A stretch of DNA of 64,000 nucleotides from a virus. The stretch is from IMG/VR virus record IMGVR_UViG_3300008267_000013, positions 23,793-87,792 of that record; one strand, 5' to 3'. Under the pieces are notes generated by a model that saw nothing but the letters and a program-made list of their open reading frames with translations, did no database searches and had not been told where the DNA came from. The stretch's first letter is position 1, and every line of letters starts with the position of its first letter. Shown one piece after another: positions 12,926 to 57,756 of this stretch. The position numbers were made by a program, and so were the translations under genes.

Positions 12926-13594
12926 ATGGCTAGAATCACAAAGAAGAGCAAGATCTCAGGTGAACAAGAAATTGCTGTTGAAGAGGATGAATCCGGAAAC
13001 CTAATTATTATGCAGCCACCAGCTGCTCCAGAGGTTAAGTTTCGTAAAATTGGTTTAATTGGCGATGTTGACGAAGAGAAAAGCGCGGACATTATTCAGT
13101 CTCTATATGCACTCAAAGAAATGGGTAGAATCGAAATCCCTCCTGCTACTAAGCGAAGCAAGCCAAAGATCTCCTATGATCCAATCGATTTTATCATCTC
13201 GACTCACGGTGGAAGTGCTAGTGATATGTTTGCGATGTACGATGTGATGCGTGATGTACGCTCAGATGGCTGCGAAATCCACACTTTTGGTGTTGGTAAG
13301 GTTATGAGTGCAGGTGTGTTGCTTCTAGCTGCTGGAACAAAAGGTGAGCGTAAAATTGGTAAGCATTGCCGTGTTATGATGCACTCAGTTATTGGTGGTA
13401 ACAGCGGCCCAATCTTTAATCTTGAGAACGAGATGAAAGAAGTACGCGCAACTCAAGAACGTTATATTCAAGCTCTTAAATCAGAAACAAAAATGTCCAT
13501 TAAACAGATTAATAATTTCTTTAATCGCCATGTTGATATCTATTTATCGGCTGAAGAAGCAGTTAAATTAGGAATTGCTGACATTGTAGTTTAA
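12926..13594 (+). CDS. clpP: ClpP-like serine protease (copy 1)
   Basis: ISTHGG, KVMSAG (Ser), VMMH (His), DIYLSAEEAVKLGIAD (Asp). Confidence 0.9.
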   Translation: MARITKKSKISGEQEIAVEEDESGNLIIMQPPAAPEVKFRKIGLIGDVDEEKSADIIQSLYALKEMGRIEIPPATKRSKPKISYDPIDFIISTHGGSASDMFAMYDVMRDVRSDGCEIHTFGVGKVMSAGVLLLAAGTKGERKIGKHCRVMMHSVIGGNSGPIFNLENEMKEVRATQERYIQALKSETKMSIKQINNFFNRHVDIYLSAEEAVKLGIADIVV

Positions 13595-15677: not shown

Positions 15678-17243
15678 GTGAAGGTTTACAACAAAGAATC
15701 AGATTTAAATCAAAAAATTGTATCAGGTGTTAAAAAGTTAGCCGAAGCTGTTGGAACAACATTGGGGCCAAAAGGCCGTAATGTTATAATTCAACAAAAA
15801 GGTAAGACGCCATTCATAACAAAAGATGGAATTTCAGTCGCTTCTCATATTGAATTTGAAGATCCGTTTGAGAACGCTGGCGCTCAAGTTTTAAAGCAAG
15901 TATCGCAGAGGACAGTAGAGGATTGTGGTGATGGTACGACAACATCAACAATTCTTGCAGCTGCTGTATTAACTAAATCGCAGAAGTACATAACTGCTGG
16001 TTCTTCCCCGACAGATATTCGTCGCGGTATGGAGAAGGCTGTTGAAGGCATTGTTGCTAATTTAAAGGATCTTGCAAAGCCAATCTCAAGTGTAGAAGAT
16101 ATTGAACATATAGCGACAATATCAGCAAACGGTGATAAAAAAATTGGTAAACTAATTGCGACAGCTGTTGATAAAGCAGGTGTCGATGGAGCCATTTCTA
16201 TCGAAGAAGGCCGCGCTCTAGAAACAAAATTAGATATCGTAGAAGGATTTCAGTTTGACGCTGGTTACGCCTCTCCGCAATTTATTACCGATGAACGCAA
16301 GGGTTCTGTAAGATATGAAAACGCTCTTGTTCTCGTAACAGACCAAGATATGGAACATATTGATGATATGATCCCTGTTCTAGAGATTGCAGCACGTGAT
16401 AAGCGCCCACTTGTTATTGTTGCCGAATCTGTTGAAGGACAGGCTCTTGCAGCTCTTATCATGAACGCAGTACGTGGTACAATGCGTGTTATGGCTATTA
16501 AAGCCCCACGATATGGTCAAGAACGCAAGAATCTATTAAAAGATCTCTCAATATCAGTTGGAGCTAAGTTTATTTCCAAAGAACACGGCATGTTGCTAAG
16601 AGATGTCAAATTGGTAGATCTAGGCTCAGTTAAGAGCGTAGAATCATTAAAGAATTGGTCAACATTTGTTGGCGGAAAGGGTGATCATGAAGAAATTGAA
16701 AAGCGCATTGAATCACTTAAAAATGAAATTACTCAAACCGATGACCTATCTGAATGTAGCCGCATCCAGGATCGTATCACAAGACTCGCAGCAGGCGTGG
16801 CTATTATATCTGTTGGGGGAGTTACAGAAGTAGATATGATTGAGCGTAAACACCGTATCGAAGATGCGTTATCCGCAGTTAAGAGCGCTCAAGAGGAGGG
16901 AATATTACCTGGTGGTGGCGTAGCTCTGCTGCGTGCAATAGCAGGATTAAATGTTACAGGTGACAATCAAGATGAAGAATTTGGTATACAAATCATCAAA
17001 GACGCATGTGAAGCTCCTATCCGTAAGATAGCCGAAAACTGTAATGAAAAAGCGGATGTCATCATCAATAATTTAACTGGTCGCGATACTTGGATTGGTT
17101 ATGATTTTAAAGATGGAATATATGTAAATTTCCAAACGGTTGGAGTGCTCGATCCTGCAAAAGTAACACGCTGCGCTCTTCAAAATGCTGTGTCAGCAGC
17201 CTCAACTTTATTGACAACAAATTACGCCATTATTGAAGTCTGA
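15678..17243 (+). CDS. groEL: GroEL-like chaperonin
   Basis: TLGPKGRNV, ITKDG, GDGTTT, EEGILPGGG, GVLDPAKVTR; no GGM tail. Confidence 0.96.
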   Translation: MKVYNKESDLNQKIVSGVKKLAEAVGTTLGPKGRNVIIQQKGKTPFITKDGISVASHIEFEDPFENAGAQVLKQVSQRTVEDCGDGTTTSTILAAAVLTKSQKYITAGSSPTDIRRGMEKAVEGIVANLKDLAKPISSVEDIEHIATISANGDKKIGKLIATAVDKAGVDGAISIEEGRALETKLDIVEGFQFDAGYASPQFITDERKGSVRYENALVLVTDQDMEHIDDMIPVLEIAARDKRPLVIVAESVEGQALAALIMNAVRGTMRVMAIKAPRYGQERKNLLKDLSISVGAKFISKEHGMLLRDVKLVDLGSVKSVESLKNWSTFVGGKGDHEEIEKRIESLKNEITQTDDLSECSRIQDRITRLAAGVAIISVGGVTEVDMIERKHRIEDALSAVKSAQEEGILPGGGVALLRAIAGLNVTGDNQDEEFGIQIIKDACEAPIRKIAENCNEKADVIINNLTGRDTWIGYDFKDGIYVNFQTVGVLDPAKVTRCALQNAVSAASTLLTTNYAIIEV

Positions 17244-18912: not shown

Positions 18913-19275
18913 ATGTCAATACTAGTTCGTGAGTTCGACAATCTATTTAGCAGCACGGCTTCAACCACTTGGGCAGATAGCCCAAGTTATGGTGCATATC
19001 ACCAACATACCCGGGAGGATGAGATCCTTATCGAAGTACCACTTGTTGGGATGACTAAAGAAAATGTATCTGTTGATGTAAGTGATAATGTTTTAGCAGT
19101 TATAGCTAAAACTGATAACACAACACGATATACTAGAAACTTTAGTCAGAAGTGGATCCTAACAAAGGATTCTGATGCCGAGAATATTTCTGCTAAACTT
19201 GAAAATGGTTTACTTTCTGTACGTATTCCACGCACCAAACCAGCAAAGAAAGTTATTAATGTATCTGTTATTTAA
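18913..19275 (+). CDS. Small heat-shock protein (Hsp20/alpha-crystallin)
   Basis: VPLVGMTKENVSVDV...ISAKLENGLLSVRIP. Confidence 0.9.
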   Translation: MSILVREFDNLFSSTASTTWADSPSYGAYHQHTREDEILIEVPLVGMTKENVSVDVSDNVLAVIAKTDNTTRYTRNFSQKWILTKDSDAENISAKLENGLLSVRIPRTKPAKKVINVSVI

Positions 19276-21218: not shown

Positions 21219-21631
21219 TTTTCAGAACTAATTATATATGTAGGGAAAGGAGAATATAATTTTAACGGGCTTGATACGCCAAGGATAAACCCAGAATGTG
21301 TACCATTTGTAAAAAGTTTAAAAAGGGAACGATTGATACCGACGAAGCAAGAGATTTGTTAGAGGAGTCACTAGAGTTCCTGAGTGAAGAACACATCGAA
21401 GAAGTAGAACAGATGATCTTTGAAGCAGAAGATACATATGAATACATGATGGAACGCCACCTTGATAAGCTAGAATTAGACGGTGGCCCTGGCTATGAAG
21501 ATGACGAAGATTATATTATCGAAGAAGATCTTCACGAAGAAGAAATCCCAGAAGATGATGACGAATAATTTATAAGGATAGAAATACAGCCACCGCATAG
21601 AAATGTGCGGTGGTTTTCTATTTATTACAGC

Positions 21632-22327
21632 ATGAAATTATATTTCAATCACGAAATGGGTTTTGGTAAGATGATGCATGAAACAATGCTTTATTATCCA
21701 TTTGGTGCAACATTTGAACCACATGAGCGTTCACACGCATTGGAAACAGGTTGGTTCCCCATTAATAATGTTATGTGGTTTCAAAGCCGCTCAACAAGAA
21801 TAAACTTAAAAAAGTATTCACCATCGGAGAAAGTGTTAAAGCTTTCAAAGAGCATAAAATATTATCCAGATGTCAATATGACACCTGTTAAAAAAGCGCG
21901 TCTCCAGGAGATATATGATAAATATGTCCAACATAAAGGTTTCCGCGATTTATCATTAACAGTTGATGATATGATTGCAAACTCAAGCGGACATGTGTAT
22001 TATGTACACAATAACAAGATAATAGGTTTTACATTCTATAAGATAATCGGCAAGAATTATCTCTCAATAGAGTTTGCTTGGGATTATGAATTACCAAAGT
22101 TATCACTTGGACATGTTAGTATATATTTTGAAAGTCTGTTTGCAAAAACGCAGCGTTGCGAGTATATGTATCTCTCTGCTGGTTATGAGTCATGCTCGCT
22201 TTATAAAGCAGACTATAAAGGGTTTGAGTGGTGGAAAGGGTATGAGTGGTCAGATGATGTTGACAAGTTCAAGAGCCTATGCTACATTGATGAGCAAGTG
22301 AAGATCTTGAACTTTGAGAGCACATGA
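21632..22327 (+). CDS. Aminoacyl-tRNA-protein transferase-like (Ate1/Bpt family, GNAT-like)
   Basis: LETGW, STRINL, IYDKY, WDY...LSLG, YMYLSAGYESCSLYKADY resemble Ate/Bpt motifs. Confidence 0.7.
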   Translation: MKLYFNHEMGFGKMMHETMLYYPFGATFEPHERSHALETGWFPINNVMWFQSRSTRINLKKYSPSEKVLKLSKSIKYYPDVNMTPVKKARLQEIYDKYVQHKGFRDLSLTVDDMIANSSGHVYYVHNNKIIGFTFYKIIGKNYLSIEFAWDYELPKLSLGHVSIYFESLFAKTQRCEYMYLSAGYESCSLYKADYKGFEWWKGYEWSDDVDKFKSLCYIDEQVKILNFEST

Positions 22328-24468: not shown

Positions 24469-25065
24469 ATGTCCTTGATTTCTGAAGAACAGCTAAAAAA
24501 GATTTTTAAAAATTGCAAAGACGATAAAATTAAATTTTATTGTGATGCTTTCAATAAAGTATTTCCAATATATGAAATTAATACACCAAACCGTATTGCT
24601 GGTTTCCTTGGACAAGTTGCTGTTGAATCAGGTGAACTTAAATACGACGTAGAACTTCCATCTAAATGGAACAAAAAGAACCCTAAAGATCCTAAGGAGC
24701 CAATTGGTACGCTATATGAGGGCCGCGCCAACCTAGGCAATAAAACGCTTGGTGATGGCCCTAAGTTTATTGGCAGAGGTATATTACAGTTAACTGGTAG
24801 AGCAAACTACGAAACAATGTCTAAAAAACTAGGTTTAGATCTAGTTAATAGTCCAGAATTGGCAGCAACACCAGAAGTCTCTACTAAGATTGCATGCCAA
24901 TACTTCAAAGATAGGGGTTTATTATCTCTATGCGATGTATGGAACCTGGATGAAGTGACACGCCGCGTCAACGGTAATGCCAAGCTTCACCTAAAAGAAA
25001 GGATAGAATATTCAGAGCGGGCATTAAAAGTGTTAAAGGATAAGAAGGAGTATGCGAACTGTTAA
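24469..25065 (+). CDS. Glycoside hydrolase family 19 endolysin
   Basis: FLGQVAVES, YEGRANLGN...GDGPKFIGRGILQLTGRANY, TRRVNG; late motif upstream. Confidence 0.92.
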   Translation: MSLISEEQLKKIFKNCKDDKIKFYCDAFNKVFPIYEINTPNRIAGFLGQVAVESGELKYDVELPSKWNKKNPKDPKEPIGTLYEGRANLGNKTLGDGPKFIGRGILQLTGRANYETMSKKLGLDLVNSPELAATPEVSTKIACQYFKDRGLLSLCDVWNLDEVTRRVNGNAKLHLKERIEYSERALKVLKDKKEYANC

Positions 25066-26866: not shown

Positions 26867-26867
26867 G

Positions 26868-26893
26868 CCCTCCTCGTAAGGGGAGGGTTTTTT
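26868..26893 (+). terminator. Rho-independent terminator after the ncRNA candidate
   Basis: CCCTCCTC-GTAA-GGGGAGGG-TTTTTT. Confidence 0.85.
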
Positions 26894-26938
26894 ATTGGTA
26901 GCTTGACTTGATATAGACTACCATGTAGAATGTACCCT

Positions 26939-27559
26939 ATGGAAAACAACATCGTTAACGATCCACAAATTAATGATCGACTCCAGCAGCTTCTACAGAA
27001 ACCATTAACTCCCAAGCATTTAAATGTAATAAAATCATTTAGTGATTTCTGGAGTAAGTATCAATATTTAACTATCAAGCAAGTTTCTTTTCTGGACAAT
27101 ATAGAATCAAGTTATAATGATGACTATAACTCTTGGAGAGCAAACTTCGGAGATGATAAAAAAGAACTACTAAAGATGGCGGTTAACTATTACCAAAATA
27201 GTCAGTATTTTATGGAGATTGTAAATAATTATTACATGGACAAAAATTACATTCCAACTCGTAGACAATACGAAAGAATGTGTGAGAATAAGTATGTAAA
27301 GCGAGCCATAGGATATTACAAGTCTAATCCATTATATGAATTGGGCGACATAATTACTCCTAGAGCTCGTTATCTTTATAAAATAAGCGATACTTTAACC
27401 GTAGGTATAATCAATAAAATTGGTGAACCTTCGTTTCTAAACGGAACCAGATTGTACGATGTAATGTGGTTAGGCGGAACAAAATTTTCTAAAATGTTTG
27501 AGAGAGAAATAAAAATTTACAGACACCCCAAAAAGGAGAAGAAAGATGGCACAACGTAA
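26939..27559 (+). CDS. Hypothetical protein with C-terminal SH3-like domain
   Basis: YELGDII...YDVMWLG; resembles the C-terminus of 43199-44098; TTGACT-17-TAGAAT promoter. Confidence 0.6.
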   Translation: MENNIVNDPQINDRLQQLLQKPLTPKHLNVIKSFSDFWSKYQYLTIKQVSFLDNIESSYNDDYNSWRANFGDDKKELLKMAVNYYQNSQYFMEIVNNYYMDKNYIPTRRQYERMCENKYVKRAIGYYKSNPLYELGDIITPRARYLYKISDTLTVGIINKIGEPSFLNGTRLYDVMWLGGTKFSKMFEREIKIYRHPKKEKKDGTT

Positions 27560-27787: not shown

Positions 27788-27973
27788 TTGATTTTGTTTG
27801 TTCCCGGTGATATTGTAGAGAAAAAATATAAACCATTTCGTCTTATAAGGCACTTTATGGTTGTCGAAGGTGAACATCCTTATTATAACTGTTATGATAT
27901 TGATAGTGAAAACTTCGTAAAAAATATCCTTCTTTCTAATACATTGTTGTGGAAAGTTGAAAAATTAGCCTAG
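27788..27973 (+). CDS. GD..KVA family protein
   Basis: FVPGDIV...EKLA; TTG start inferred. Confidence 0.6.
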   Translation: MILFVPGDIVEKKYKPFRLIRHFMVVEGEHPYYNCYDIDSENFVKNILLSNTLLWKVEKLA

Positions 27974-27982
27974 GTTTATAAT

Positions 27983-28210
27983 ATGTATAATACAGGTGAT
28001 ATTCTAGAAAGAATTATAATAAGTAACATAGATAGAATGAATCCTATATTTAGAGATGACAATATACATTTCTTGATAGTTGATAAAAGAGAATATTTTC
28101 TAGAAGTATCTGGCAAGTGTGCAGTTATTTACACACTTATGTCACTAAAGACCAATCAACATCACACAATCAGTTTGAGAGATACACGTAATTGGAAAAA
28201 AGTAGCATAA
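27983..28210 (+). CDS. GD..KVA family protein
   Basis: YNTGDIL...WKKVA. Confidence 0.7.
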   Translation: MYNTGDILERIIISNIDRMNPIFRDDNIHFLIVDKREYFLEVSGKCAVIYTLMSLKTNQHHTISLRDTRNWKKVA

Positions 28211-28226
28211 TAGGTGACACCATGAG

Positions 28227-28436
28227 ATGGAGCAGGAAGAAAAGATAAACGGAGTTGGCGATATAATAGTAGAATGTTATATGAATAGCGTTCGCGGCGA
28301 GCAACATTATATTATAATAGATCAAAACTATTATCAATATGAATTACTGCCACTAAATGCAGCCAATAAAGATTATCAATCATCGTTCCTGTTATTAAAA
28401 AGTACGGTTGTCATGTATTATATAAGAGTCGCTTAA
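28227..28436 (+). CDS. GD..KVA family protein
   Basis: VGDII...IRVA. Confidence 0.7.
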   Translation: MEQEEKINGVGDIIVECYMNSVRGEQHYIIIDQNYYQYELLPLNAANKDYQSSFLLLKSTVVMYYIRVA

Positions 28437-28825
28437 TGAGATATAACATAGGAGATGTTATAGAAGCAGATTATGTATCGCATAAGCAAATATATTACAT
28501 TAAAGATATAATAGCAGATGAATACATACTAAGAACAATAGATGGTGATTTACAAAGAGATCTTCATTGTCTGCTAACAAATGTTAGCAATATAACGTAC
28601 AAAAAGGTTGATATGTCGCTTACTAAAGATATGATGATATCAGTAGATTCAGAAATTCAATATTATAGCAACCAAGAACTAATTACTTATAATATATCAT
28701 ATACTGAATTAAACAATAAATATCCTAATTCTTATTTTAAATACAGAGTAGATCGTAGTACAGAAGAGCTATTAACCAGAGGATTAGAACCATCTGATGC
28801 CAGTAAAAGCAGAGGTGATAGTTAA
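28436..28825 (+). CDS. GD..KVA family protein extended past YKKVD (apparent fusion)
   Basis: YNIGDVI...YKKVD then a ~70-aa extension starting with Met. Confidence 0.6.
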   Translation: MRYNIGDVIEADYVSHKQIYYIKDIIADEYILRTIDGDLQRDLHCLLTNVSNITYKKVDMSLTKDMMISVDSEIQYYSNQELITYNISYTELNNKYPNSYFKYRVDRSTEELLTRGLEPSDASKSRGDS

Positions 28826-29000
28826 TGTAGGTGATATTATTAAAGTAAAGAGTGCTGAAACAGAATTCAGTGGCCTCTACCTAGTATTAGAAATAAAATC
28901 AACTCAAGGAATAAAAATATATAATCTGCAGGATCTAAGATTCCCAGACACATTCTGGACTTTTTTTAGCGATGATGATATATTGGAAATACTGGCGTAA
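28797..29000 (+). CDS. GD..KVA family protein
   Basis: VNVGDII...EILA. Confidence 0.65.
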   Translation: MPVKAEVIVNVGDIIKVKSAETEFSGLYLVLEIKSTQGIKIYNLQDLRFPDTFWTFFSDDDILEILA

Positions 29001-29003
29001 AAA

Positions 29004-29240
29004 ATGATGCCTTCACACGATAGATTAAGAGAAGTAAGATACGATGTGGGCGATCTTGTCAAACGTTATAATATGCTTGACTCGGATAAAGAGGCCACAT
29101 CATGCGTATATTTAATACTAGCTGTAAATATCGATGAAGAAGGTTGGGTCTGGTACTACTGCTACAGTTTCGGATCAGGTACATATCGTGAATTTTTGAT
29201 GGATGATAATTCCGCTCGTAAATATGTTAAATTAGCGTAG
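29004..29240 (+). CDS. GD..KVA family protein
   Basis: YDVGDLV...VKLA. Confidence 0.7.
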   Translation: MMPSHDRLREVRYDVGDLVKRYNMLDSDKEATSCVYLILAVNIDEEGWVWYYCYSFGSGTYREFLMDDNSARKYVKLA

Positions 29241-29252
29241 AAAAGAGGACAT

Positions 29253-29468
29253 ATGCGTAAATTTAAAGATGGTGATAAGGTATCTGTTAAATCGTGTGAA
29301 GAATTAGAGATGCCATGCAGCGTTGAGGGTCTTGATGATTGGATTCCAAAATTAACCTCTTTGGATGGTCGTACTATTTATATGTATAAAGTAACTGGTC
29401 GTCACGCAAAGCGCGGTAATGCAGTATCGGTTCGCGTATCAGAAAGTCAATTAGAACTTTGGAGTTAA
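29253..29468 (+). CDS. SH3-like small protein (divergent family member)
   Basis: KFKDGDKV...ESQLEL. Confidence 0.65.
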   Translation: MRKFKDGDKVSVKSCEELEMPCSVEGLDDWIPKLTSLDGRTIYMYKVTGRHAKRGNAVSVRVSESQLELWS

Positions 29469-29469
29469 T

Positions 29470-29655
29470 ATGAAAAGTTTTGAGTTGGGTGATATTGTAC
29501 ATGATTTTGAATATGACCAATATTATCTAATCACACACATTAAACAATCAGATACATATAAGTACCTGTATTCATTGATGGATTTAGAAGATTCATCAAG
29601 AGTTATAGGGGCATCACTAGCAAATCTTAAAAAATTATACAAGAAGGTAGCATAA
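29470..29655 (+). CDS. GD..KVA family protein
   Basis: FELGDIV...YKKVA. Confidence 0.7.
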   Translation: MKSFELGDIVHDFEYDQYYLITHIKQSDTYKYLYSLMDLEDSSRVIGASLANLKKLYKKVA

Positions 29656-29808
29656 AATGAGCTCCGAAAGATGGATAAGATTGATATTATCATCCATAGT
29701 TGGAGCAACTGCTTATGTAATTATAGCAGTTATATACACGCATTATAAAACTCACGATAAATATACGGTCTATAATAAGTCGCCGCTAACAATAGGGCCG
29801 TATAAAAA

Positions 29809-30030
29809 ATGAGCAACGAGCGAATATTTAAGCCGGGGGATATAATAAAGTATATACCAGACAAAGATAGCAAGATAAAAGAAGCCTTTGAACAGGAACT
29901 ATATATAGTTATATCAGCTGGTCCTTATATATTTGAAGAGGGTTTCCAAATGGTTGAAAAAATGCATCTGATATCTGGTGTTATACAGATGCGTCCCATA
30001 ATGATTAATAGATGGGAAATATTGGCTTGA
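29809..30030 (+). CDS. GD..KVA family protein
   Basis: FKPGDII...EILA. Confidence 0.7.
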   Translation: MSNERIFKPGDIIKYIPDKDSKIKEAFEQELYIVISAGPYIFEEGFQMVEKMHLISGVIQMRPIMINRWEILA

Positions 30031-30203
30031 AGTTTAGAGTAGGTGATATAATAAGAGCAATCAATAAATCAACTGGTATATATGTTCACTTCCTAATTTA
30101 TAGGATTGAAAAGTGGCACTATGTAGCTTACTGTATTGAAGATGGTATGCCAAGCGTATCAATCAGTCCAATATACGATAATGATTTTGAAAAGGTTGCT
30201 TAG
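30027..30203 (+). CDS. GD..KVA family protein
   Basis: FRVGDII...FEKVA; TTGA overlap. Confidence 0.7.
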   Translation: MKFRVGDIIRAINKSTGIYVHFLIYRIEKWHYVAYCIEDGMPSVSISPIYDNDFEKVA

Positions 30204-30254
30204 ATCAGTAAGTTGTGCTATAGTATTTAAACTAACTAACTCAAGGAGGAAAAT

Positions 30255-30479
30255 ATGAGCAAAGTTAGCATCGTACTAAGTATTGCCGTTGGATTGTGGT
30301 CAGCGACTGCTCTTGGAGTCGGTACCGCATGGTTGTTCAGTAGAACTAGACCAGTACAAGTTGTAAGACTCGACAATAACTGTGTAACTGTTCAGCAGGG
30401 TATGTTTCACCGACTAGAATGTTATAACAGCAATGTTCCACCTCATGATCCCGTGGAACAGATTGGTTATGCAGAGTAA
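30255..30479 (+). CDS. Small membrane protein inside the array
   Basis: AAGGAGG RBS, N-terminal hydrophobic helix, terminator at ~30503-30532. Confidence 0.7.
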   Translation: MSKVSIVLSIAVGLWSATALGVGTAWLFSRTRPVQVVRLDNNCVTVQQGMFHRLECYNSNVPPHDPVEQIGYAE

Positions 30480-30580
30480 TAATAAATAGATATAGCCAAT
30501 TCAGCGGCTGGTGTGTGAACACCAGCCGTTTTTATTATCTGCTTGACAACAAACATACGTTGACCTATACTATCAACACG

Positions 30581-30808
30581 ATGGATACACCACAGGTTGG
30601 CGACATATGGAAGAACAACTGGTCAAGTAACCTCAACACACATAATTGCGGCGAAACTCACTACCTATTGATAAAGAAGGTAGAGCCCGACAACTCCAAG
30701 GATACAAAGTGGGTAGCATTTTCTTATAAGAGATATAAGGAAGTACTCATCTATATTGATAACTATTCAAATGAGATAGTTACAAATAGTTTCACAAGGG
30801 TATCTTGA
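30581..30808 (+). CDS. GD..KVA family protein
   Basis: PQVGDIW...TRVS; TTGACA-17-TATACT promoter at 30543. Confidence 0.7.
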   Translation: MDTPQVGDIWKNNWSSNLNTHNCGETHYLLIKKVEPDNSKDTKWVAFSYKRYKEVLIYIDNYSNEIVTNSFTRVS

Positions 30809-30809
30809 T

Positions 30810-30992
30810 ATGCTATCATCAACTATAGAACCTGGTGACATCTGGAAGAATGATAACTCACAATTCCATAATATCATTATTGAACCCGACATCGTAAACC
30901 CTTGGTGGATTACATGGGTTATTGAATTGGGCGAATATAATCTCTATCATAAAGATGATTTTGATATGCGTTGGTGGAGGAAAGTAGCATGA
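30810..30992 (+). CDS. GD..KVA family protein
   Basis: IEPGDIW...WRKVA. Confidence 0.7.
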   Translation: MLSSTIEPGDIWKNDNSQFHNIIIEPDIVNPWWITWVIELGEYNLYHKDDFDMRWWRKVA

Positions 30993-31192
30993 GTAGCAGA
31001 GACGCAAAGTGGGATGTTGGCGATATTATCAGAGAAGAATGGGGTGACGAATCAAGGCATTTCCTAATAATGAGTGTATGTTTGTGGGAAACAAGTATTG
31101 ATACTTATGAGTGTCGTGTTTTAGAGACAGGACAAACCATGAACATAACTCCACATTATAGTCCACCAAACATGTTGAGAAAAGTCGCATGA
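30989..31192 (+). CDS. GD..KVA family protein
   Basis: WDVGDII...LRKVA. Confidence 0.7.
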   Translation: MSSRDAKWDVGDIIREEWGDESRHFLIMSVCLWETSIDTYECRVLETGQTMNITPHYSPPNMLRKVA

Positions 31193-31413
31193 GGACTCTT
31201 AAATTCAGCATCGGAGATATCATAACACGCGGCAAGCCACACCATGATATGTTCAAAGATAATTGGCGTAAGTTCTATCTTATACATGATATAATCTATG
31301 AAGAAGAGCAAAAAGAATATAGATATTGTTTATACAGTTTCCAAACAGGTTCTTGGAGCGGCTATTTCCCAGCAGGTGAACTTGTAGAACCTTTTCTATT
31401 CAAGGTAGCCTAA
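31189..31413 (+). CDS. GD..KVA family protein
   Basis: FSIGDII...FKVA. Confidence 0.7.
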   Translation: MRTLKFSIGDIITRGKPHHDMFKDNWRKFYLIHDIIYEEEQKEYRYCLYSFQTGSWSGYFPAGELVEPFLFKVA

Positions 31414-31592
31414 TGAATCCACAAGTTGGTGACATATGGAAGATAGGAGATCACTATCATTATCTTGTCTTAGAAGAGAGACTTGACTACTGGGGGGAGA
31501 AGCAGTATTATATGTACATCCTTGAGAGAGACATGTACGACTGCCTCTCATTAGATTTAATAGAGTGATGGAATGGTACAAAAGTGGTGTAA
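31413..31592 (+). pseudogene. GD..KVA family member with in-frame TGA
   Basis: MNPQVGDIW...LIE, TGA at 31566-31568, then WNGTKVV* abutting the next ATG. Confidence 0.65.
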
Positions 31593-31802
31593 ATGTCTAA
31601 ACCTCATCAAGTTGGTGATGTTGTCATGGTTGAAAATGACTGGATTGCTTATGAGAATGGTAGTTTGGTTTACGAAACAGGACAAAATCATTATCTTATA
31701 CTTGAACGCTGCGATTATACCTGTACCTATACAACGATTCATCTGCAAAGCGGCAAGCATATCCTTACAAGTATGTTAGATAACGCAACAAAGGTCGCCT
31801 AA
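31593..31802 (+). CDS. GD..KVA family protein
   Basis: HQVGDVV...ATKVA. Confidence 0.7.
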   Translation: MSKPHQVGDVVMVENDWIAYENGSLVYETGQNHYLILERCDYTCTYTTIHLQSGKHILTSMLDNATKVA

Positions 31803-32038
31803 TGGAACTCAAGAATATCCTACTTCTCGATAAAAACAAGAAAGTGTATTATACACATTATGAAGTTGGAGATATTCTTAGACACGAAGCAGAAATTAGT
31901 GCTCATTATCTGGTAGAAGATATACGCGTAGAAGATAATCTTGGAGTTTACTCGCTTAGAGTTCTTGAAAATAACGATATCTTTTCATGGGACGTAGAAA
32001 TAGTAGATAAAGCCCGCAAAATCAAGAGGGTCGCATGA
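31802..32038 (+). CDS. GD..KVA family protein
   Basis: YEVGDIL...IKRVA. Confidence 0.7.
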   Translation: MELKNILLLDKNKKVYYTHYEVGDILRHEAEISAHYLVEDIRVEDNLGVYSLRVLENNDIFSWDVEIVDKARKIKRVA

Positions 32039-32235
32039 TGGAACACCAATACGAGCCCGGTGATATTCTTGCAGTTGATGAACCTTGGTCCAATGAAACA
32101 TTTTATTACTTGATAGAGGGTGAGCTTGATTCTGTTCATGCGTACATGGAATTAATGTATCCTTACCGCTGTCTAAGTGATGGCAAGACAGGATGGGGTA
32201 AATTCAATGCGCCTTCAACAAGGAAAGTCGCATGA
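32035..32235 (+). CDS. GD..KVA family protein
   Basis: YEPGDIL...TRKVA. Confidence 0.7.
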   Translation: MMEHQYEPGDILAVDEPWSNETFYYLIEGELDSVHAYMELMYPYRCLSDGKTGWGKFNAPSTRKVA

Positions 32236-32417
32236 TGAATATGTTCCAAATAGGTGATATAGTAAAATGTACAACTACTAACATGATAGAACACATGCTC
32301 ATACTTGACACACAACCAGACTACTGGTATATTGTCCTGTGTCTAGAATCCGGCTTTACAAAAACACATAAGATGTGGCCGAATCAAATCCCAAGAGTAT
32401 ATATGAAGGTCGCATGA
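32232..32417 (+). CDS. GD..KVA family protein
   Basis: FQIGDIV...YMKVA. Confidence 0.7.
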   Translation: MMNMFQIGDIVKCTTTNMIEHMLILDTQPDYWYIVLCLESGFTKTHKMWPNQIPRVYMKVA

Positions 32418-32620
32418 TGTTTAAAACCAAGTATCAGATTGGCGACATTATCGAGGGTAGTCACATACCTGGCGCAAAAATACACCTGCTAATTGAAAAC
32501 ATTACCTATATGGGCAAGAAGCCATTTGAGTATTGTGTACGGAATCTTGAAGAAGATTTGATATATGAAAAGTCAGTAGAAAGAACCGATAAAAGTCTTT
32601 ATTACAACAAGGTTGGCTAG
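32414..32620 (+). CDS. GD..KVA family protein
   Basis: YQIGDII...YNKVG. Confidence 0.7.
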   Translation: MMFKTKYQIGDIIEGSHIPGAKIHLLIENITYMGKKPFEYCVRNLEEDLIYEKSVERTDKSLYYNKVG

Positions 32621-32656
32621 CTTGACAACCCTAACCTCTTGCGCTACTATACAACC

Positions 32657-32881
32657 ATGACGCCACGATACGAACCCGGCGATATCCTTCACCATTCAGG
32701 TATGGAAGGTATTGAGTTTTATTGTTTGGTGATGGACGTTGAGACCGTATCAAACTGTATTATAAACGGTAACTACGAACATCGTAGAATTTATACTCTT
32801 CTTTGTATGGATGACGGAGAAGTGTATAGATTCAATACAGCAAACATTGATTGTAGTGTTTATTATAGGAAGGTTGCGTAG
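32657..32881 (+). CDS. GD..KVA family protein (recent duplicate A)
   Basis: RYEPGDIL...YRKVA; own TTGACA promoter at 32622. Confidence 0.75.
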   Translation: MTPRYEPGDILHHSGMEGIEFYCLVMDVETVSNCIINGNYEHRRIYTLLCMDDGEVYRFNTANIDCSVYYRKVA

Positions 32882-32917
32882 CTTGACAACCATCACTTCT
32901 TGAGGCACTATACAACC

Positions 32918-33142
32918 ATGAAGCCCCGATACGAACCCGGTGACATCCTTTATCATCAAGGCAGCGGCTTTGGTGAATTTTATTGTTTAGTTATGGATAT
33001 CGAACACAAGACAAGACCAGATCCAAGAGGTAGAAAGTGGCCTTTTGATGTCTACGTTCTTCTTGGTATGGATGACGGCGAGACTTATACAATAAGTACT
33101 CAAAATATTGACTGTAGTGTATACTATAAAAAGGTTGCATGA
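32918..33142 (+). CDS. GD..KVA family protein (recent duplicate B)
   Basis: RYEPGDIL...YKKVA; own TTGACA promoter at 32883. Confidence 0.75.
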   Translation: MKPRYEPGDILYHQGSGFGEFYCLVMDIEHKTRPDPRGRKWPFDVYVLLGMDDGETYTISTQNIDCSVYYKKVA

Positions 33143-33345
33143 CAAAGTATCAGATAGGCGATATCATCCGTGTTGAAGTTTCTCACAGAGAAGAACCACT
33201 CATCTTCTTGATTGAAGATATTATAAATGAAAATCGGCGCGATGCCGCCCTATATTGTGTTAGAGATTTAGAATCAAACGAGACAAAGAAAGTGTTTAGC
33301 AACACCCTAGATAAACGCGATCTAACCGTTTGGAAGGTGACCTAA
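33139..33345 (+). CDS. GD..KVA family protein
   Basis: YQIGDII...WKVT. Confidence 0.7.
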   Translation: MTKYQIGDIIRVEVSHREEPLIFLIEDIINENRRDAALYCVRDLESNETKKVFSNTLDKRDLTVWKVT

Positions 33346-33539
33346 TGGAACCTCAAACTGGGGACATATGGGAATACAATTTCGACACACCAGATTATCA
33401 CTTAACATATAACCTGTTGGTGCTAGGGAGCGGCATCATGTTCAGCAATTATTATCTGTGTCTTATACTAGAAACAGGTAGCATACAAGAGGCAAGTTTC
33501 ATGCCAACACCCAAAGAAACATACGAGAAGGTTGCATGA
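33345..33539 (+). CDS. GD..KVA family protein
   Basis: PQTGDIW...YEKVA. Confidence 0.7.
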   Translation: MEPQTGDIWEYNFDTPDYHLTYNLLVLGSGIMFSNYYLCLILETGSIQEASFMPTPKETYEKVA

Positions 33540-34745
33540 TTTAAAAAACGAATAGGTAGAAGAAGTAGGAGGACGGGGGGGTCACAAAACCAAAGAAGGT
33601 ACTATTTATATATAGAAAACAAAGATAGGTTCCATGCTGAGAAGACGCACGGTGATCACCACAAAAGAAAAGGTGATCCACAGCCAAGCGGACGCATGGA
33701 CTGTGTCCATCTTCAAAGTGCAAACGAACCAGTTGATGGACGCCGGAAGCAGGATCTGAACCCTGAACCGGCTAAAAAGAGAATGAAAAACCCCACAGTC
33801 CACAGGGCGTGGAACCCCTGATAGTTTTCAAGAGGCGGCAATCACCAGGGACAAAAGATTGCTGACCACTTGGTTGGACAGATCAACTGGGGGTTTTGTT
33901 ATTAAACTAAAAGCTGGTTAGGCCCATGGTGCTGATGATGGAGCCGCAAACTAACAAACAAAAAAAGATCCAGCCACCAGTAGAGGTAGGAGGACCAGTC
34001 CCAGTCATAGAAGTAGAAGATCCTGGAGAGAGGTGAGGTATAGCACTACAAGTAGAGTAGGATAAGCACTAGTGCCAGTAGAGGTAGGAGTATACCAGGA
34101 GGGGAGGGAGTAGAGGGGAAACAAATAGATCCCATACCCACCCATCCATAAGGTAGAGGGAGTAGGGGGAGGGGTATGACTAGGTAAAGTTCTATAGCAA
34201 ACCCAGTATAATAAAAAGTGGACGAGATGGACCGGCGAAGCGGTCCTGCTCTCCCAGTTGAGGAAGAGGAAAGAATCAGATGCTAGTAAATAAGCATACT
34301 GCCCTTATACAATAGGTTGTGGTAATTGAAAAAAAGGTATACAATTGCTTATTATAAGTTATTATCTACTGGTTAAATGTGGCAATTGGTGTCAAAGCGG
34401 GGCAAGAAGTGGCATCGAGTGCCAACACAGCTTTAGCCCTTATTTTATAGGGTTTTCGAACAAGCCCATCCGGAAACCCCTTATTTTAAGCTAGATTGTG
34501 ATAAATTTTATTTTTATAACATGGATCCCCTATAGATTAAGACATAATAGAATAGCCCCTTCACCATTAAGCCTAAAATAAGGCAAAACGTGATTTCACA
34601 AAATGCCTTAAAATAAGGCACTTCCGAATATTAGACGTATATGTTGAATATATGATAAATATATATTATATGCGGCACCCCTACTCTAATAAATTTAGTA
34701 TACCACCGATGTTGGCAGGTGTCCAGTAGCGTCTATTCAATAGAT
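33540..34745. other. Long non-coding region with short repeats (candidate origin or genome-end signal)
   Basis: No credible ORF; five GTAGAG-led purine repeats; CCTTATTTTA twice and its complement twice; lies at a strand convergence. Confidence 0.45.
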
Positions 34746-34893
34746 ATGGAAAAAGGGTAAAGGGTGGGGGCTAGCCGGGTCAGTAGTCCTTTTTTTTGTT
34801 AGATAGGGCAGGAAGAAAAAAGGATATAGCAGGGGCCTAGCCCCCTCCGCTCCCCCCTTTATTAACAGGGGAGGGAAGGCTTGACTCGCGGTG

Positions 34894-38118: not shown

Positions 38119-38310
38119 CTAAGCAGCTATATAGAACGGATTGTCGGGTAGGTCAAGTCCAAAAGGGCTTGTGTAGGTTGAATACGTCCCATCGTTCAAT
38201 ACATAGATATGTAGCTGGTGGACATCGTTTGGATATACCTTATCCTCATAGATTAACCAGTATGTCCCATCATGCTTTCTACATAGGATATCACCAACTT
38301 GGACCATCAT
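38119..38310 (-). CDS. GD..xA family protein
   Basis: VQVGDIL...YIAA. Confidence 0.65.
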   Translation of the reverse strand: MMVQVGDILCRKHDGTYWLIYEDKVYPNDVHQLHIYVLNDGTYSTYTSPFGLDLPDNPFYIAA

Positions 38311-38642
38311 GCCTTGCCCTTGTGGTTAGCTACACCAGAAAAGGTTGCCACAGTTTCGAACTTGATACCAGTTTCCTTGGCACGATATGCCAATTGACAG
38401 TTCTTACCTGTATTCAGGCCGCTATTAGCCGCCCAATAACGGAGGTAGTCTTTTCTATCATCCTGTGATTGGAACCGCAAGATCTGGACTTGGGCCTGCT
38501 TACCCTCTCCAGAAGAGATACCAGCATAACGAACAGTAGACTCCTCAGAACAAATTTCACAATGGGTGGAGAGGCCACCAGCACGACGCTTGGCAGGCGA
38601 ACGATGATCAAACTGTTCGCCGCACACTTGACAGGTTCTCAT
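38307..38642 (-). CDS. Hypothetical Zn-finger protein
   Basis: CQVC...CEIC; ATGA overlaps. Confidence 0.65.
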   Translation of the reverse strand: MRTCQVCGEQFDHRSPAKRRAGGLSTHCEICSEESTVRYAGISSGEGKQAQVQILRFQSQDDRKDYLRYWAANSGLNTGKNCQLAYRAKETGIKFETVATFSGVANHKGKA

Positions 38643-38830
38643 GCTAACTTCCTCCACTTAATTCTTTCAAACTGATTATCCAAGTCCATGAACCAATCCC
38701 CAACCTCACCATCTTCAAGTTTCAAGCACAGATGGTAATCGAGATCATCGATATAGTCAAGCACAAGCAGGGTGGCAGTTCCATACTGGGGATAACTATA
38801 TTCCCAGATGTCACCAATGTTGACAGTCAT
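38639..38830 (-). CDS. GD..xA family protein
   Basis: VNIGDIW...WRKLA. Confidence 0.7.
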   Translation of the reverse strand: MTVNIGDIWEYSYPQYGTATLLVLDYIDDLDYHLCLKLEDGEVGDWFMDLDNQFERIKWRKLA

Positions 38831-39015
38831 GCCAGCACCTTAAACTCTGCCATGCCAAACTGGTATCTAACGTTTCTACCATTAGTCAGCGAGATAGTAT
38901 CGTAAATATATCCATCTACATCCTTATCAAGCCTGACAATAAGAAAAATATTATCGTCTCTATCCCAATCGTACTGGACAATATCCCCGACATGGCACAG
39001 CGGTTCGTTGCTCAT
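38827..39015 (-). CDS. GD..xA family protein
   Basis: HVGDIV...KVLA. Confidence 0.7.
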   Translation of the reverse strand: MSNEPLCHVGDIVQYDWDRDDNIFLIVRLDKDVDGYIYDTISLTNGRNVRYQFGMAEFKVLA

Positions 39016-39115: not shown

Positions 39116-39190
39116 TGGTGCTTTCGGGAAGAGTTGCACTTCCATCACGAACTTTACAAGAGTTGTATTTTGCTATTAAACTACGAAAGC
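39116..39190 (-). tRNA. tRNA-Thr(UGU)
   Basis: Cloverleaf GCTTTCG/CGAAAGC+ACCA; loop CTTGTAA; atypical T-loop TGCAACT. Confidence 0.8.
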
Positions 39191-39924: not shown

Positions 39925-40221
39925 TGGTCCCAGCTGAGCGAGTCGAACGCTCAATCCCGTAAGGGCGGTTGATTTTCTTACCACTTCAGCTTTCGCTGCC
40001 ATCTTTCGATGTTTGTGGTCTGGACTATGCCTTCACCTTTTAATCTTTCGATCAGTCAGGTGGGTGCCGTCTAGTCTCTACACGTTCTAGATATTTCTAT
40101 CTAGCTTCGCTCGGCGTTGCCAGTTAAGGGTTCACCGAATTTGACACCATTCAGATAGAGGATTTCGCCTCTACTGCTCAATTAAATAAGTCAACTGTGT
40201 ATGCCATTCCACCAAGCTGGG
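39925..40221 (-). tRNA. tRNA-Leu(UAA) with group I intron
   Basis: Exons join as GTTGA-CTT|AAAA-TCAAC; long variable arm; ACCA end. Confidence 0.92.
39977..40187 (-). ncRNA. Group I intron (compact, IC3-like) in tRNA-Leu
   Basis: AAATTCGGTGAA, GTAGAGACTAGACGG, GGCATAGTCCA core; terminal G; P1 CTT/GAG. Confidence 0.9.
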
Positions 40222-42062: not shown

Positions 42063-42275
42063 TCAAGCGTGCAACTCGTATGTGTAGTTTTTATCCATCG
42101 TGTTGAGATAACTTGTGCTGTACTCGTCTCGATCCATGTCATAGATAGAGTAGTACGGCTTACCGTTGATATCAAGAGTAACACCAGTAACAAGAAAATA
42201 TCTTGTTTCCACATGGTGTTGCTCGGAACCATAGACCCATGTGTTCTTCACAATGTCACCGATCTCGTATGTCAT
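42063..42275 (-). CDS. GD..xA family protein
   Basis: YEIGDIV...ELHA. Confidence 0.65.
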   Translation of the reverse strand: MTYEIGDIVKNTWVYGSEQHHVETRYFLVTGVTLDINGKPYYSIYDMDRDEYSTSYLNTMDKNYTYELHA

Positions 42276-57159: not shown

Positions 57160-57756
57160 ATGTTTAGATTAACTTCAGAACAAGAACAAACCAAAACCAA
57201 GGCCGAGGAAGCAGAGGACGAATCCTCAGTAGAAACATCTGGATGTAAGATATTTTATTATTCAGAAGTCAATAGAGACTCTGTATTGAGTCTAAACAGA
57301 CAACTTATCGACCTTTCAAATAAATTATTAAACGCTTCAAATGTTTATGAAATCCCAGTACCACATATTAAATTACATATAAACAGTGGTGGTGGAAGTT
57401 TACTTGACGGATTCGCAGCGGTGGACTATATTAAAGCTTGCAAGGCCCCGGTTCACTCAATTATTGATGGAAGCGCTGCTAGTGCGGCAACTCTTATGAG
57501 CGTGGTAGCACAAAAACGTAGCATTCATAAGCACTCATTTATGCTTATCCATCAATTATCGGGCGGTATGTGGGGTAAATACGAAGATATTGTTGATGAT
57601 TTTAAAAATTCTACAAGGTTTATGGAGACAATCAACACTATATATACCCAACATACCAAGATCCCTGCTAAAGAACTAAAAGAAATGTTAAAAAGAGATT
57701 TGTGGTTTGACGCAAAAACTTGTCTCAAGTATGGTCTTGTAGACGAAATTATCTAA
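57160..57756 (+). CDS. clpP: ClpP-like serine protease (copy 2)
   Basis: INSGGG, GSAASAA (Ser), MLIHQ (His), RDLWF (Asp), YGLVDEI. Confidence 0.92.
   Translation: MFRLTSEQEQTKTKAEEAEDESSVETSGCKIFYYSEVNRDSVLSLNRQLIDLSNKLLNASNVYEIPVPHIKLHINSGGGSLLDGFAAVDYIKACKAPVHSIIDGSAASAATLMSVVAQKRSIHKHSFMLIHQLSGGMWGKYEDIVDDFKNSTRFMETINTIYTQHTKIPAKELKEMLKRDLWFDAKTCLKYGLVDEII

What the first reader, a model, noticed from the sequence alone, without database searches (positions are those of the whole stretch)
27788..33539. Array of 24 small SH3/KOW-like paralogues with a conserved C-terminal K/R-V-A
Seen: ~60-80 aa proteins with [YF]x[VIP]GD[IVL], a central HYL[IV]-like strand and divergent middles. Twelve end exactly KVA* and 18 of 24 end [VL]A*. 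The KVA codons vary synonymously (aaa/aag, gta/gtc/gtt, gca/gct/gcc/gcg), so the constraint looks protein-level and not a DNA repeat. At least four more members sit in the island (38119, 38639, 38827, 42063), and related GD motifs occur at 17954, 22324, 23971 and 24189. Inference: an expanded, rapidly diversifying family on one small beta-barrel scaffold, possibly an anti-defence or host-protein-binding library. The non-polar terminus resembles ssrA-like ClpX or Tsp degrons, so the proteins may be short-lived or act as protease decoys, which is notable beside two phage ClpP genes.
Basis: partly seen in the sequence, partly recalled or inferred. Interest (0 to 1): 0.8.

Follow-up and report, generated by a model that had tools for sequence, protein, structure and literature searches.

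The report
Expanded phage family of mini beta-barrel proteins
An uncultivated large phage carries 27 fast-diverging copies of an undescribed 51-78-residue SH3/Tudor-like barrel protein, most in one early-type gene array, whose conserved Lys-Val-Ala end looks mainly structural; no function has been shown.

Summary
Positions 27788-33539 encode 23 members by profile, not 24. Four more lie on the minus strand at 38119, 38639, 38827 and 42063. The ORFs at 17954, 22324, 23971, 24189 and 29253 are not members.

A typical member folds with high confidence (pLDDT 94) into a five-strand SH3/Tudor/KOW-like barrel. No Pfam family or solved relative matches. A search of 1.84 billion proteins gave 228 small relatives. 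No isolated phage matched.

Two related viral contigs also carry arrays, one with about 17 copies and one with 27. Their backbone proteins are 58-81% identical to ours, but array members are only about 30% identical and show no one-to-one orthologues.

Members picked without using their C-termini still end in Ala in 21 of 26 cases (background 3.8%). KVA closes strand 5, which in SH3 folds lies beside the invariant Gly-Asp of strand 1, and it is confidently ordered. Its codons often double as the next gene's ribosome-binding site.

[KR]KVA also matches the published ClpX C-motif-2, so a degron role stays open. This scan noted the same family before on other DNA (e1-5737019). Function is unknown; a panel of early host-protein binders is my best guess.

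The parts
27788..27973 (+). member 1 (TTG start after GGGGAAGG; ends KLA)
   Evidence: orthologue P0095 is 90% identical
27983..28210 (+). member 2 (75 aa, ends KKVA; next gene 16 nt away)
28227..28436 (+). member 3 (69 aa, ends RVA; TAATG overlap with the next gene)
28436..28825 (+). member 4: the barrel domain ends YKKVD at about 28612 and then reads on for 70 aa (the usual stop is missing)
   Evidence: the extension has no Pfam hit
28797..29000 (+). member 5 (67 aa, ends ILA)
29004..29240 (+). member 6 (78 aa, ends KLA)
29253..29468 (+). interspersed non-family small gene (71 aa) with a 61% orthologue in G001
29470..29655 (+). member 7 (61 aa, ends KKVA; weak phrog_7591 match)
29657..29812 (+). 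interspersed 51-aa hydrophobic ORF, not a member
29809..30030 (+). member 8, the most divergent (ends ILA); only strands 1, 2 and 5 are modelled with confidence
30012..30203 (+). member 9 (63 aa, ends EKVA; no gene for 51 nt downstream)
30255..30479 (+). interspersed 74-aa ORF with a hydrophobic N-terminus, not a member
30581..30808 (+). member 10 (75 aa, ends RVS), first gene after the promoter at 30543
30810..30992 (+). member 11 (60 aa, ends WRKVA)
30989..31192 (+). member 12 (67 aa from the ATGA-overlap start, ends RKVA)
   Evidence: (P0001)
31189..31413 (+). member 13 (74 aa, ends FKVA)
31413..31568 (+). member 14, cut short by a TGA stop. Orthologue P0010 continues ...ESWNGVKVA; here WNGTKVV follows the stop in frame.
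31593..31802 (+). member 15 (69 aa, ends TKVA)
31802..32038 (+). member 16 (78 aa, ends KRVA)
32035..32235 (+). member 17 (66 aa, ends RKVA)
32232..32417 (+). member 18 (61 aa, ends MKVA); the member that was modelled
   Evidence: AF2 pLDDT 94.3 with five strands; fold searches
32414..32620 (+). member 19 (68 aa, ends NKVG)
32657..32881 (+). member 20 (74 aa, ends RKVA), with its own promoter
32918..33142 (+). member 21 (74 aa, ends KKVA), the youngest duplicate of member 20 (60% aa identity)
33139..33345 (+). member 22 (68 aa, ends WKVT)
33345..33539 (+). member 23, last of the array (64 aa, ends EKVA; nothing follows)
38119..38310 (-). dispersed member (63 aa, ends IAA)
   Evidence: orthologue P0047 is 98% identical
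38639..38830 (-). dispersed member (63 aa, ends RKLA)
38827..39015 (-). dispersed member (62 aa, ends KVLA)
42063..42275 (-). dispersed member (70 aa, ends LHA)
26867..26931 (+). intrinsic terminator (26867-26888), then promoter GCTTGACT-17-TAGAAT with an ATG at 26939, 7 nt after the -10 box; start of the first transcription unit
30503..30571 (+). 12-bp-stem terminator (30503-30530), then promoter GCTTGACA-17-TATACT, 9 nt before the ATG at 30581
32620..32650 (+). promoter GCTTGACA-17-TACTAT, 6 nt before the ATG at 32657
32881..32911 (+). duplicate promoter GCTTGACA-17-CACTAT, 6 nt before the ATG at 32918 (84% identical to the previous one)

Best explanation
The region is a clade-specific multigene family: 23 tandem copies plus 4 dispersed ones. 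The products are small (51-78 aa, one 129-aa read-through form), mostly acidic, single-domain SH3/Tudor-like five-strand barrels.

Expression (inferred). Four sigma-70-type promoters of the form GCTTGACA-N17-TAnnnT, each with almost no leader, drive the array. Inside each unit the genes are translationally coupled. This is how host-polymerase-read early phage genes are usually organised.

Scaffold. The conserved residues build the barrel: [KR][YF]x[IV]GDI in strand 1, H[YF]L[IV] in strand 2, a near-invariant Tyr in strand 3, an LE[TDS]G hairpin, and [YWF]xKVA in strand 5. The beta1-beta2 loop, the beta2-beta3 loop and the beta4-beta5 segment vary freely in sequence and length.

Evolution. Copies are born, diverge and are lost so fast that related phages share no recognisable orthologues.

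Function (inferred, untested). I think the proteins are a diversified set of stoichiometric binders of host or defence proteins, made early in infection.

The KVA end. It is mainly a scaffold element. It finishes strand 5, which in SH3 folds pairs antiparallel with strand 1. That places Lys-Val-Ala beside the invariant Gly-Asp-Ile and closes the barrel. The purine-rich K/R codons are also used as the ribosome-binding site of the next cistron.
For: Family and fold:
- Leave-one-out profile membership holds for all 27.
- AF2 gives pLDDT 94.3 and pTM 0.79 with strands at 10-14, 19-28, 32-37, 43-47 and 56-59.
- Every top fold match is an SH3-like barrel. Foldseek TM is about 0.6. VIA Z is 6-7 over 50-59 residues.

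Conservation map: G8, D9, I10, L23, I24, Y33, L38, K59, V60 and A61 are the most conserved positions. Insertions concentrate after residues 18-19 and 29 (mean 4.1 residues, maximum 22).

C-terminus ordered: pLDDT is 94 at the last residue of member 18. It is 88 for the last three residues of the otherwise poorly modelled member 8, where strands 1 and 5 are the confident parts.

Distribution:
- 228 relatives at E<=1e-3 among 1.84e9 proteins, almost all 55-80 aa and full length. Of the top 150, 74 end in KVA and 121 end in A.
- The syntenic relative G001 has about 17 copies, and G002 (162 kb, 89% complete, gp23-type capsid) has 27.

Rapid turnover:
- Backbone identity to G001 is 58% for the polymerase, 81% for GroEL and 77% for the ATPase.
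- The tool reports 79% and 75% identity to G002 for the polymerase and GroEL.
- Median best identity of array members between genomes is 30-31%, the same as between paralogues in one genome.
- In the youngest pair (32657 and 32918), dN/dS is 0.14 on the scaffold. The 18-codon beta2-beta3 loop is 11% identical with dN/dS about 2.3.

Charge: median pI 5.0 and mean net charge -3.2, which fits protein binding better than nucleic-acid binding.

Transcription: four promoters sharing GCTTGAC and two strong terminators.

Dual coding: junctions such as AAGGTCGCATGA and AAGGTAGCCTAATG are common. AAG is used 12:6 over AAA at -3, against 31% AAG genome-wide (p=0.002).
Against: - No binding partner, expression timing or phenotype has been observed. 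The host is unknown.
- The fold match is generic (Z below 8) and carries no functional information.
- I could not read the model coordinates. The Asp9-Lys59 contact and the burial of Val60 and Ala61 are inferred from SH3 topology, not measured.
- Three consecutive conserved terminal residues, and a chain that stops exactly after Ala in 80-90% of members, is more than a strand usually needs. A free-carboxylate function is therefore possible.
- In G001 only 6 of 15 members end in Ala, so the motif is dispensable in some lineages.
- The loop dN/dS rests on 18 saturated codons chosen after seeing the alignment.
- The most divergent member folds only partly (pLDDT 66.7).
Confidence: 0.5

Rival explanations
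1. The C-terminal [KR]-K-V-A (more generally hydrophobic-Ala-COOH) is a ClpX-type degradation signal. Three versions are possible: the proteins are short-lived early factors; they are decoys that occupy ClpXP; or they are tagged adaptors that drag bound host proteins to the protease.
For: [quoted passage not shown] Tails here include WKKVA, YKKVA, WRKVA, LRKVA, TRKVA and YRKVA.
- The chain ends exactly at Ala in 21/26 members here and 23/25 in G002.
- The phage carries a set of proteostasis genes: GroEL, Hsp20, an ATE_C-like tRNA-protein transferase and two ClpP-family genes.
Against: - The tail is not a free extension. K is in strand 5, and V and A are confidently ordered.
- From my own knowledge, ClpX normally needs several accessible residues.
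- Position -4 is basic in only about a third of relatives (K 31 + R 26 of about 165; E 32, T 20). In G002, position -3 is often F or L.
- Both ClpP-like genes score best as head-maturation proteases (phrog_94).
- No ClpX gene was looked for or seen.
- The motif was defined in E. coli, and the host here is unknown.
Confidence: 0.2
2. The proteins bind RNA or DNA, or act as transcription or translation regulators, as many KOW, Tudor and Sm-like barrels do.
For: Fold neighbours include a PWWP domain bound to ssDNA, NusG/Spt5 KOW domains, Hfq/LSm, and the UvrD/PcrA and CarD Tudor-like domains that bind RNA polymerase.
Against: - Most members are acidic (median pI 5.0).
- There is no match to the KOW, Tudor or LSM Pfam models beyond two isolated weak hits.
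- There is no N-terminal helix as in Sm or Hfq proteins.
- Twenty-seven divergent copies are hard to reconcile with one conserved nucleic-acid target.
Confidence: 0.1
3. The conserved KVA reflects only a DNA- or RNA-level constraint (a Shine-Dalgarno sequence and start/stop overlap for the next cistron) that was copied along with each tandem duplication.
For: - Thirteen of 23 array junctions have the next start within 3 nt of, or overlapping, the stop. The K/R-V codons there give AAGG, AGGT or GGAGG 4-8 nt upstream of that start.
- AAG and GTC are over-used relative to the genome.
Against: - Seven of the eight array members with no closely following gene still end K-[VL]-[AG]. This includes the last gene of the array.
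- The Ala codon lies outside the Shine-Dalgarno sequence and varies at its third base.
- G002 keeps hydrophobic-Ala with F or L at -3.
- 121 of 150 metagenomic relatives end in A.
- AAG enrichment is not significant against the array's own codon usage (p=0.12).
Confidence: 0.05
4. The array is a near-neutral product of runaway tandem duplication with no present function for most copies.
For: - One copy is truncated by a stop (31413) and one has lost its stop (28436). One copy folds poorly.
- Copy sets differ completely between relatives.
Against: - Twenty-five of 27 reading frames are intact and tightly packed.
- Scaffold dN/dS is 0.14 in the youngest pair.
- The core motifs are kept over 228 divergent relatives.
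- About 3% of a size-limited phage genome is spent on the family in three lineages.
Confidence: 0.1

Closest known systems
SH3-like small beta-barrels of the Tudor / PWWP / chromo / KOW class (for example the UvrD/PcrA C-terminal Tudor domain, Spt5/NusG KOW domains, R67 DHFR)
   Same: Five antiparallel strands in about 60 residues. A G-D-hydrophobic motif opens strand 1. The N- and C-termini are adjacent. VIA Z is 6-7 with rmsd 2.0-2.5 A over 50-59 residues, and Foldseek TM is about 0.6.
   Different: There is no sequence-level match to any of these families. The proteins are free-standing and acidic, end exactly at KVA, and occur as 17-27 paralogues per phage genome.
ClpX C-motif-2 degrons (MuA RRKKAI, YbaQ RAKKVA, PaaA HARKVA)
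   Same: The last four to five residues of about half the members ([KR]-K-V-A-COOH) match the published examples.
   Different: Here the residues are the end of a barrel strand and are predicted to be ordered. Related genomes use F, L or Y in place of K and V. No degradation data exist.
Clusters of small early 'host-takeover' genes in large lytic phages, and virus multigene families that expand by tandem duplication (my own knowledge; not searched successfully here)
   Same: Many small genes are packed behind host-type promoters. Copy number and sequence change quickly between relatives.
   Different: Here all genes are paralogues of one fold, which is unusual for phage early regions. No target is known.
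phrog_7591 (PHROGs, unknown function)
   Same: Member 29470 matches at E=2e-6, and 7 of 146 relatives match.
   Different: Most members do not match, and the PHROG has no annotation. No isolated phage in the INPHARED set matched by tblastn with two queries.

Membership tests
SH3-like small beta-barrel fold (Tudor/KOW/chromo superfold) | five antiparallel strands forming a closed small barrel of about 60 residues | tested here: met
   AF2 gives pLDDT 94.3 with five strands. All top Foldseek and VIA matches have this fold. The most divergent member is only partly modelled.
KOW motif family (Pfam PF00467) | sequence match to the KOW profile | tested here: not met
   No KOW hit for 10 members at E<=1, or for 146 relatives at E<=0.01.
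Tudor / PWWP / chromo 'royal family' readers | profile match and an aromatic cage that binds methylated ligands | tested here: inconclusive
   Only one of 146 relatives gave a weak LBR_tudor hit (E=0.005). The cage geometry could not be inspected because no coordinates were available.
Sm / Hfq-like | N-terminal alpha-helix followed by the bent five-strand sheet with Sm1/Sm2 motifs | tested here: not met
   The model has no N-terminal helix. There was one weak LSM12 hit below the cut-off. LSm and Hfq appear only as generic fold neighbours.
ClpX C-motif-2 degron | C-terminal basic-basic-small/hydrophobic sequence like RRKKAI or RAKKVA | tested here: met
   In the window, eleven of 27 members end [KR][KR]VA or [KR][KR]LA. 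The reference motifs are in PMC9775585 Table 2. Among relatives, position -4 is basic in about a third (K 31 + R 26 of about 165).
ClpX C-motif-2 degron | the tail is accessible to the ClpX pore | tested here: inconclusive
   K is in strand 5, and the last residues have pLDDT 94 and 88. This suggests an ordered end, but solvent exposure was not measured.
ClpX C-motif-2 degron | ClpXP-dependent degradation | not testable with these tools
   This needs half-life assays in wild-type and clpX/clpP-deficient strains.
ssrA-like C-motif-1 (LAA) | the C-terminus ends in x-A-A | tested here: not met
   Only 38119 (IAA) in the window does so. AA endings are 6 of 150 among relatives.
Tsp/Prc substrates | periplasmic location (signal peptide) plus a non-polar C-terminus | tested here: not met
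   The non-polar end is present. However, members have only 5-10 mostly polar residues before strand 1, so there is no signal peptide (read directly). That Tsp is periplasmic is my own knowledge.
phrog_7591 | significant profile match | tested here: inconclusive
   Two of 10 window members (E=2e-6 and 5e-3) and 7 of 146 relatives match.

The most novel reading that the evidence does not exclude
The family may be a phage-encoded library of degron-bearing adaptors. Each paralogue's variable loops would bind a different host or defence protein. The shared, strictly terminal [KR]KVA-COOH would then hand the complex to ClpXP or another C-end-reading machine. The result would be targeted destruction of many host proteins early in infection, alongside the phage's GroEL, Hsp20, ATE-like transferase and ClpP-family genes.
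Probability: 0.07. Interest if true: 0.9.

Novelty: new variant of a known kind. Interest (0 to 1): 0.6.

Why it matters
Large multigene families on a single fold are rare in phages. Here about 3% of a roughly 160-200-kb genome is spent on 17-27 copies of one tiny, confidently folding barrel. The loops of that barrel are replaced far faster than the rest of the genome changes.

If the copies are binders of host or defence proteins, the family would be useful in two ways. It would be a natural, compact binder scaffold, and it would be a new source of host-takeover or counter-defence factors from uncultivated phages. The strictly terminal KVA also gives a simple handle, by mutating or extending it, to test whether phage early proteins use C-end recognition.

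If the proteins prove to be inert, the array is still a clear example of birth-and-death gene evolution in a phage.

Tried and rejected
- Megablast of the array against the isolate phage set gave no match. tblastn of two members against the same set also gave none, even at E<=1.
- Pfam gave no family, and PHROGs gave only weak unknown-function hits.
- A PDB sequence-profile search gave nothing below E=0.28.
- The ESM Atlas returned only generic small barrels.
Single members found nothing in viral contigs or metagenome contigs.
- A degenerate DNA pattern for KYQIGDI and the neighbouring ATPase did recover related contigs.
I therefore could not fetch the DNA of the 64-98% identical orthologues seen as proteins, and could not do site-wise dN/dS.
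- Rejected as members: ORFs 17954, 22324, 23971, 24189, 29253 and 34577.
- P0036, a 510-aa repeat protein, matches only the N-terminal motif.
- Rejected: treating the two ClpP genes as evidence for a degron system, because they score best as prohead proteases.
- Two literature searches for a described phage family of this kind found nothing relevant.

Full report
**Setting.** The window is bases 23793-87792 of an 87.8-kb linear IMG/VR viral contig that CheckV rates 43% complete. The contig encodes:
- a DnaE-type polymerase at 3614-7042;
- GroEL at 15678-17243;
- PhoH;
- an AAA ATPase;
- HNH endonucleases;
- two group I introns and two tRNAs.

It is far from every isolated phage. The polymerase is at most 30% identical to any of them, and the array gave no nucleotide or tblastn match. 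A relative, G002, has a T4-type gp23 capsid gene.

**Observation.** ORF listing and translation confirm a head-to-tail run of small + strand ORFs from 27788 to 33539. They carry [YF]x[VIP]GD[IVL], H[YF]L[IV] and a [YFW]xKVA end.

Leave-one-out HMMs place each of 27 ORFs within the top 27 of 847 six-frame ORFs of the contig, with E from 2e-14 to 3e-3. Non-members score 7 bits or less. An HMM built mainly from outside sequences gives the same result.

By profile there are 23 members in the array and 4 on the minus strand (38119, 38639, 38827, 42063). ORF 29253 and the 'GD' ORFs at 17954, 22324, 23971 and 24189 are not members.

Two copies are damaged:
- Copy 31413 stops at a TGA where its 90%-identical orthologue P0010 continues to ...GVKVA.
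- Copy 28436 ends its domain in KVD and reads on for 70 residues.

**Fold.**
- With the 27 paralogues as the alignment, AlphaFold2 models member 32232-32417 at pLDDT 94.3 and pTM 0.79, as five strands.
- Foldseek against PDB and BFVD, and an exhaustive VIA search, return only SH3-like barrels. These include Tudor, PWWP, KOW and chromo domains, the UvrD/PcrA and CarD Tudor-like domains, R67 DHFR and EF-P domain I. TM is about 0.6 and Z is 6-7. This fixes the fold class and nothing more.
- The most divergent member (29809) reaches only pLDDT 66.7, with strands 1, 2 and 5 as the confident parts.
- No Pfam family matches. PHROGs gives weak hits to families of unknown function. The PDB sequence profile gives nothing.

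**Distribution.** A profile search of 1.84 billion cluster representatives found 228 proteins at E<=1e-3. Almost all are 55-80 residues and match full length. A few are two-domain fusions.

Two further viral contigs carry arrays:
- G001 is a 34.9-kb fragment, collinear with our contig. It has about 17 copies in the same position.
- G002 is 162 kb, 89% complete, with a gp23-type capsid. It has 27 copies in three clusters.

The scan has therefore seen this family before on other DNA.

**Rate of change.**
- Against G001, backbone proteins are 58% (polymerase), 81% (GroEL) and 77% (ATPase) identical.
- For G002 the tool reports 79% (polymerase) and 75% (GroEL).
- The non-family gene 29253, which sits inside the array, has a 61% orthologue in G001.
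- Array members have median best identities of 30-31% between genomes, equal to the within-genome paralogue value. Several members hit the same target. No orthology survives, so the family turns over or diverges much faster than the backbone.
- In the youngest pair (32657 and 32918), the scaffold has dN/dS 0.14. The 18-codon beta2-beta3 loop is 11% identical with dN/dS about 2.3. That loop value is suggestive only, because the sample is small, saturated and chosen after seeing the alignment.
- Across 167 sequences, length variation concentrates in the beta1-beta2 and beta2-beta3 loops.

**The C-terminus.** Three readings were weighed.

(a) *DNA level.*
- In 13 of 23 junctions the next start overlaps or abuts the stop. 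The K/R-V codons there supply AAGG, AGGT or GGAGG 4-8 nt upstream. AAG is preferred 12:6 over AAA, against 31% AAG genome-wide. The codons are therefore dual-use.
- This cannot be the only cause. Seven of the eight array members without a closely following gene keep K-[VL]-[AG].
- The Ala codon lies outside the Shine-Dalgarno sequence and varies at its third base.
- In G002, 23 of 25 members end in Ala, with F, L or K at -3 and V, Y or I at -2. Those members were chosen with an HMM that lacked the terminal strand.

(b) *Structural.*
- K59 is the last residue of strand 5. V60 and A61 follow with pLDDT 94.
- In SH3 folds strand 5 pairs antiparallel with strand 1 and the two termini are adjacent (established knowledge). 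KVA should therefore lie against the invariant G8-D9-I10.
- The two motifs are the best-conserved parts of the family. They are also the confident parts even of the poorly modelled member.
- I could not inspect coordinates, so this contact is inferred.

(c) *Signal.*
- [KR]KVA matches the ClpX C-motif-2 examples YbaQ RAKKVA and PaaA HARKVA (PMC9775585 Table 2).
- The chain stops exactly at Ala far more often than a strand would require.
- Against this, the tail is ordered and position -4 is basic in only about a third of relatives.
- G001 has largely lost the motif (6 of 15 end in Ala).
- The two ClpP-family genes look like prohead proteases.
- Tsp is excluded because the proteins have no signal peptide.

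**Context.** Four promoters share GCTTGAC[AT]-N17-TAnnnT, with the ATG 6-9 nt after the -10 box. Two follow strong terminators. This indicates transcription by a sigma-70-type host polymerase and nearly leaderless first cistrons. Members are acidic, with median pI 5.0. The contig also carries Hsp20 and an ATE_C-like transferase.

**Verdict.** The scaffold and rapid-diversification reading is supported, and the function is untested.

My best reading, at about 50%, is a clade-specific library of early-expressed small barrel proteins that bind host or defence proteins through variable loops. In that reading KVA is chiefly a barrel-closing element that is also used as a ribosome-binding site. A ClpX-type degron role is a live minority reading, at about 20%.

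The family is undescribed in the curated resources I could search. It belongs to a familiar fold and a familiar evolutionary pattern, so I rate it a new variant of a known kind.

Noticed in passing
window 26903-26939, 30543-30581, 32620-32657, 32881-32918: Four promoters share an extended -35 box (GCTTGAC[AT]), a 17-nt spacer and a TAnnnT -10 box. The first ATG lies only 6-9 nt downstream and has no Shine-Dalgarno sequence, which suggests leaderless or near-leaderless first cistrons.
   Followed up: partly
window 31413-31592: This family member is truncated by an in-frame TGA. The in-frame codons after the stop still read WNGTKVV, whereas the 90%-identical metagenomic orthologue P0010 reads ...ESWNGVKVA. 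It looks like a recent nonsense mutation.
   Followed up: partly
window 28436-28825: This family member has KVD in place of KVA-stop. It continues for 70 residues with no known domain and overlaps the next member by 29 nt.
   Followed up: partly
window 33540-34890: A 1.35-kb stretch without convincing ORFs lies between the array and the minus-strand AAA ATPase. It has several terminator-like hairpins, and no Rfam family reached the gathering score.
   Followed up: no
window 12875-13594, 15678-17243, 18913-19275, 21605-22327, 57160-57756: The contig carries a set of proteostasis genes. Two are ClpP-family proteins, whose best PHROG is head-maturation protease. The others are GroEL, Hsp20 and an ATE_C-like Arg/Leu-tRNA-protein transferase (29.7 bits against a cut-off of 25).
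   Followed up: partly
window 39997-40198 (-) and 58387-58595 (+): There are two group I introns above the Rfam gathering score. They lie near tRNA-Thr (39116-39190, minus strand) and tRNA-Gly (57967-58041).
   Followed up: no
window 29253-29468: A non-family 71-aa gene is embedded in the array. It is 61% identical to its G001 counterpart, while the surrounding family members have no orthologues. It serves as an internal control for the family's high rate of change.
   Followed up: yes
window 27788-33539: The array's codon usage differs from that of the large genes. AAG is 50% of Lys codons in the array against 31% in large genes. GTC is 6 of 18 at the Val of KVA, against 7% genome-wide.
   Followed up: partly
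proteins P0054, P0083 (metagenomic relatives): These are natural two-domain fusions of the family (175 and 142 aa), which hints that the domains may work in pairs.
   Followed up: no
window 24469-25065: This 198-aa protein has a Glyco_hydro_19 (chitinase class I / lysozyme-like) match at 29.5 bits. It is 73% identical to its G001 counterpart.
   Followed up: no
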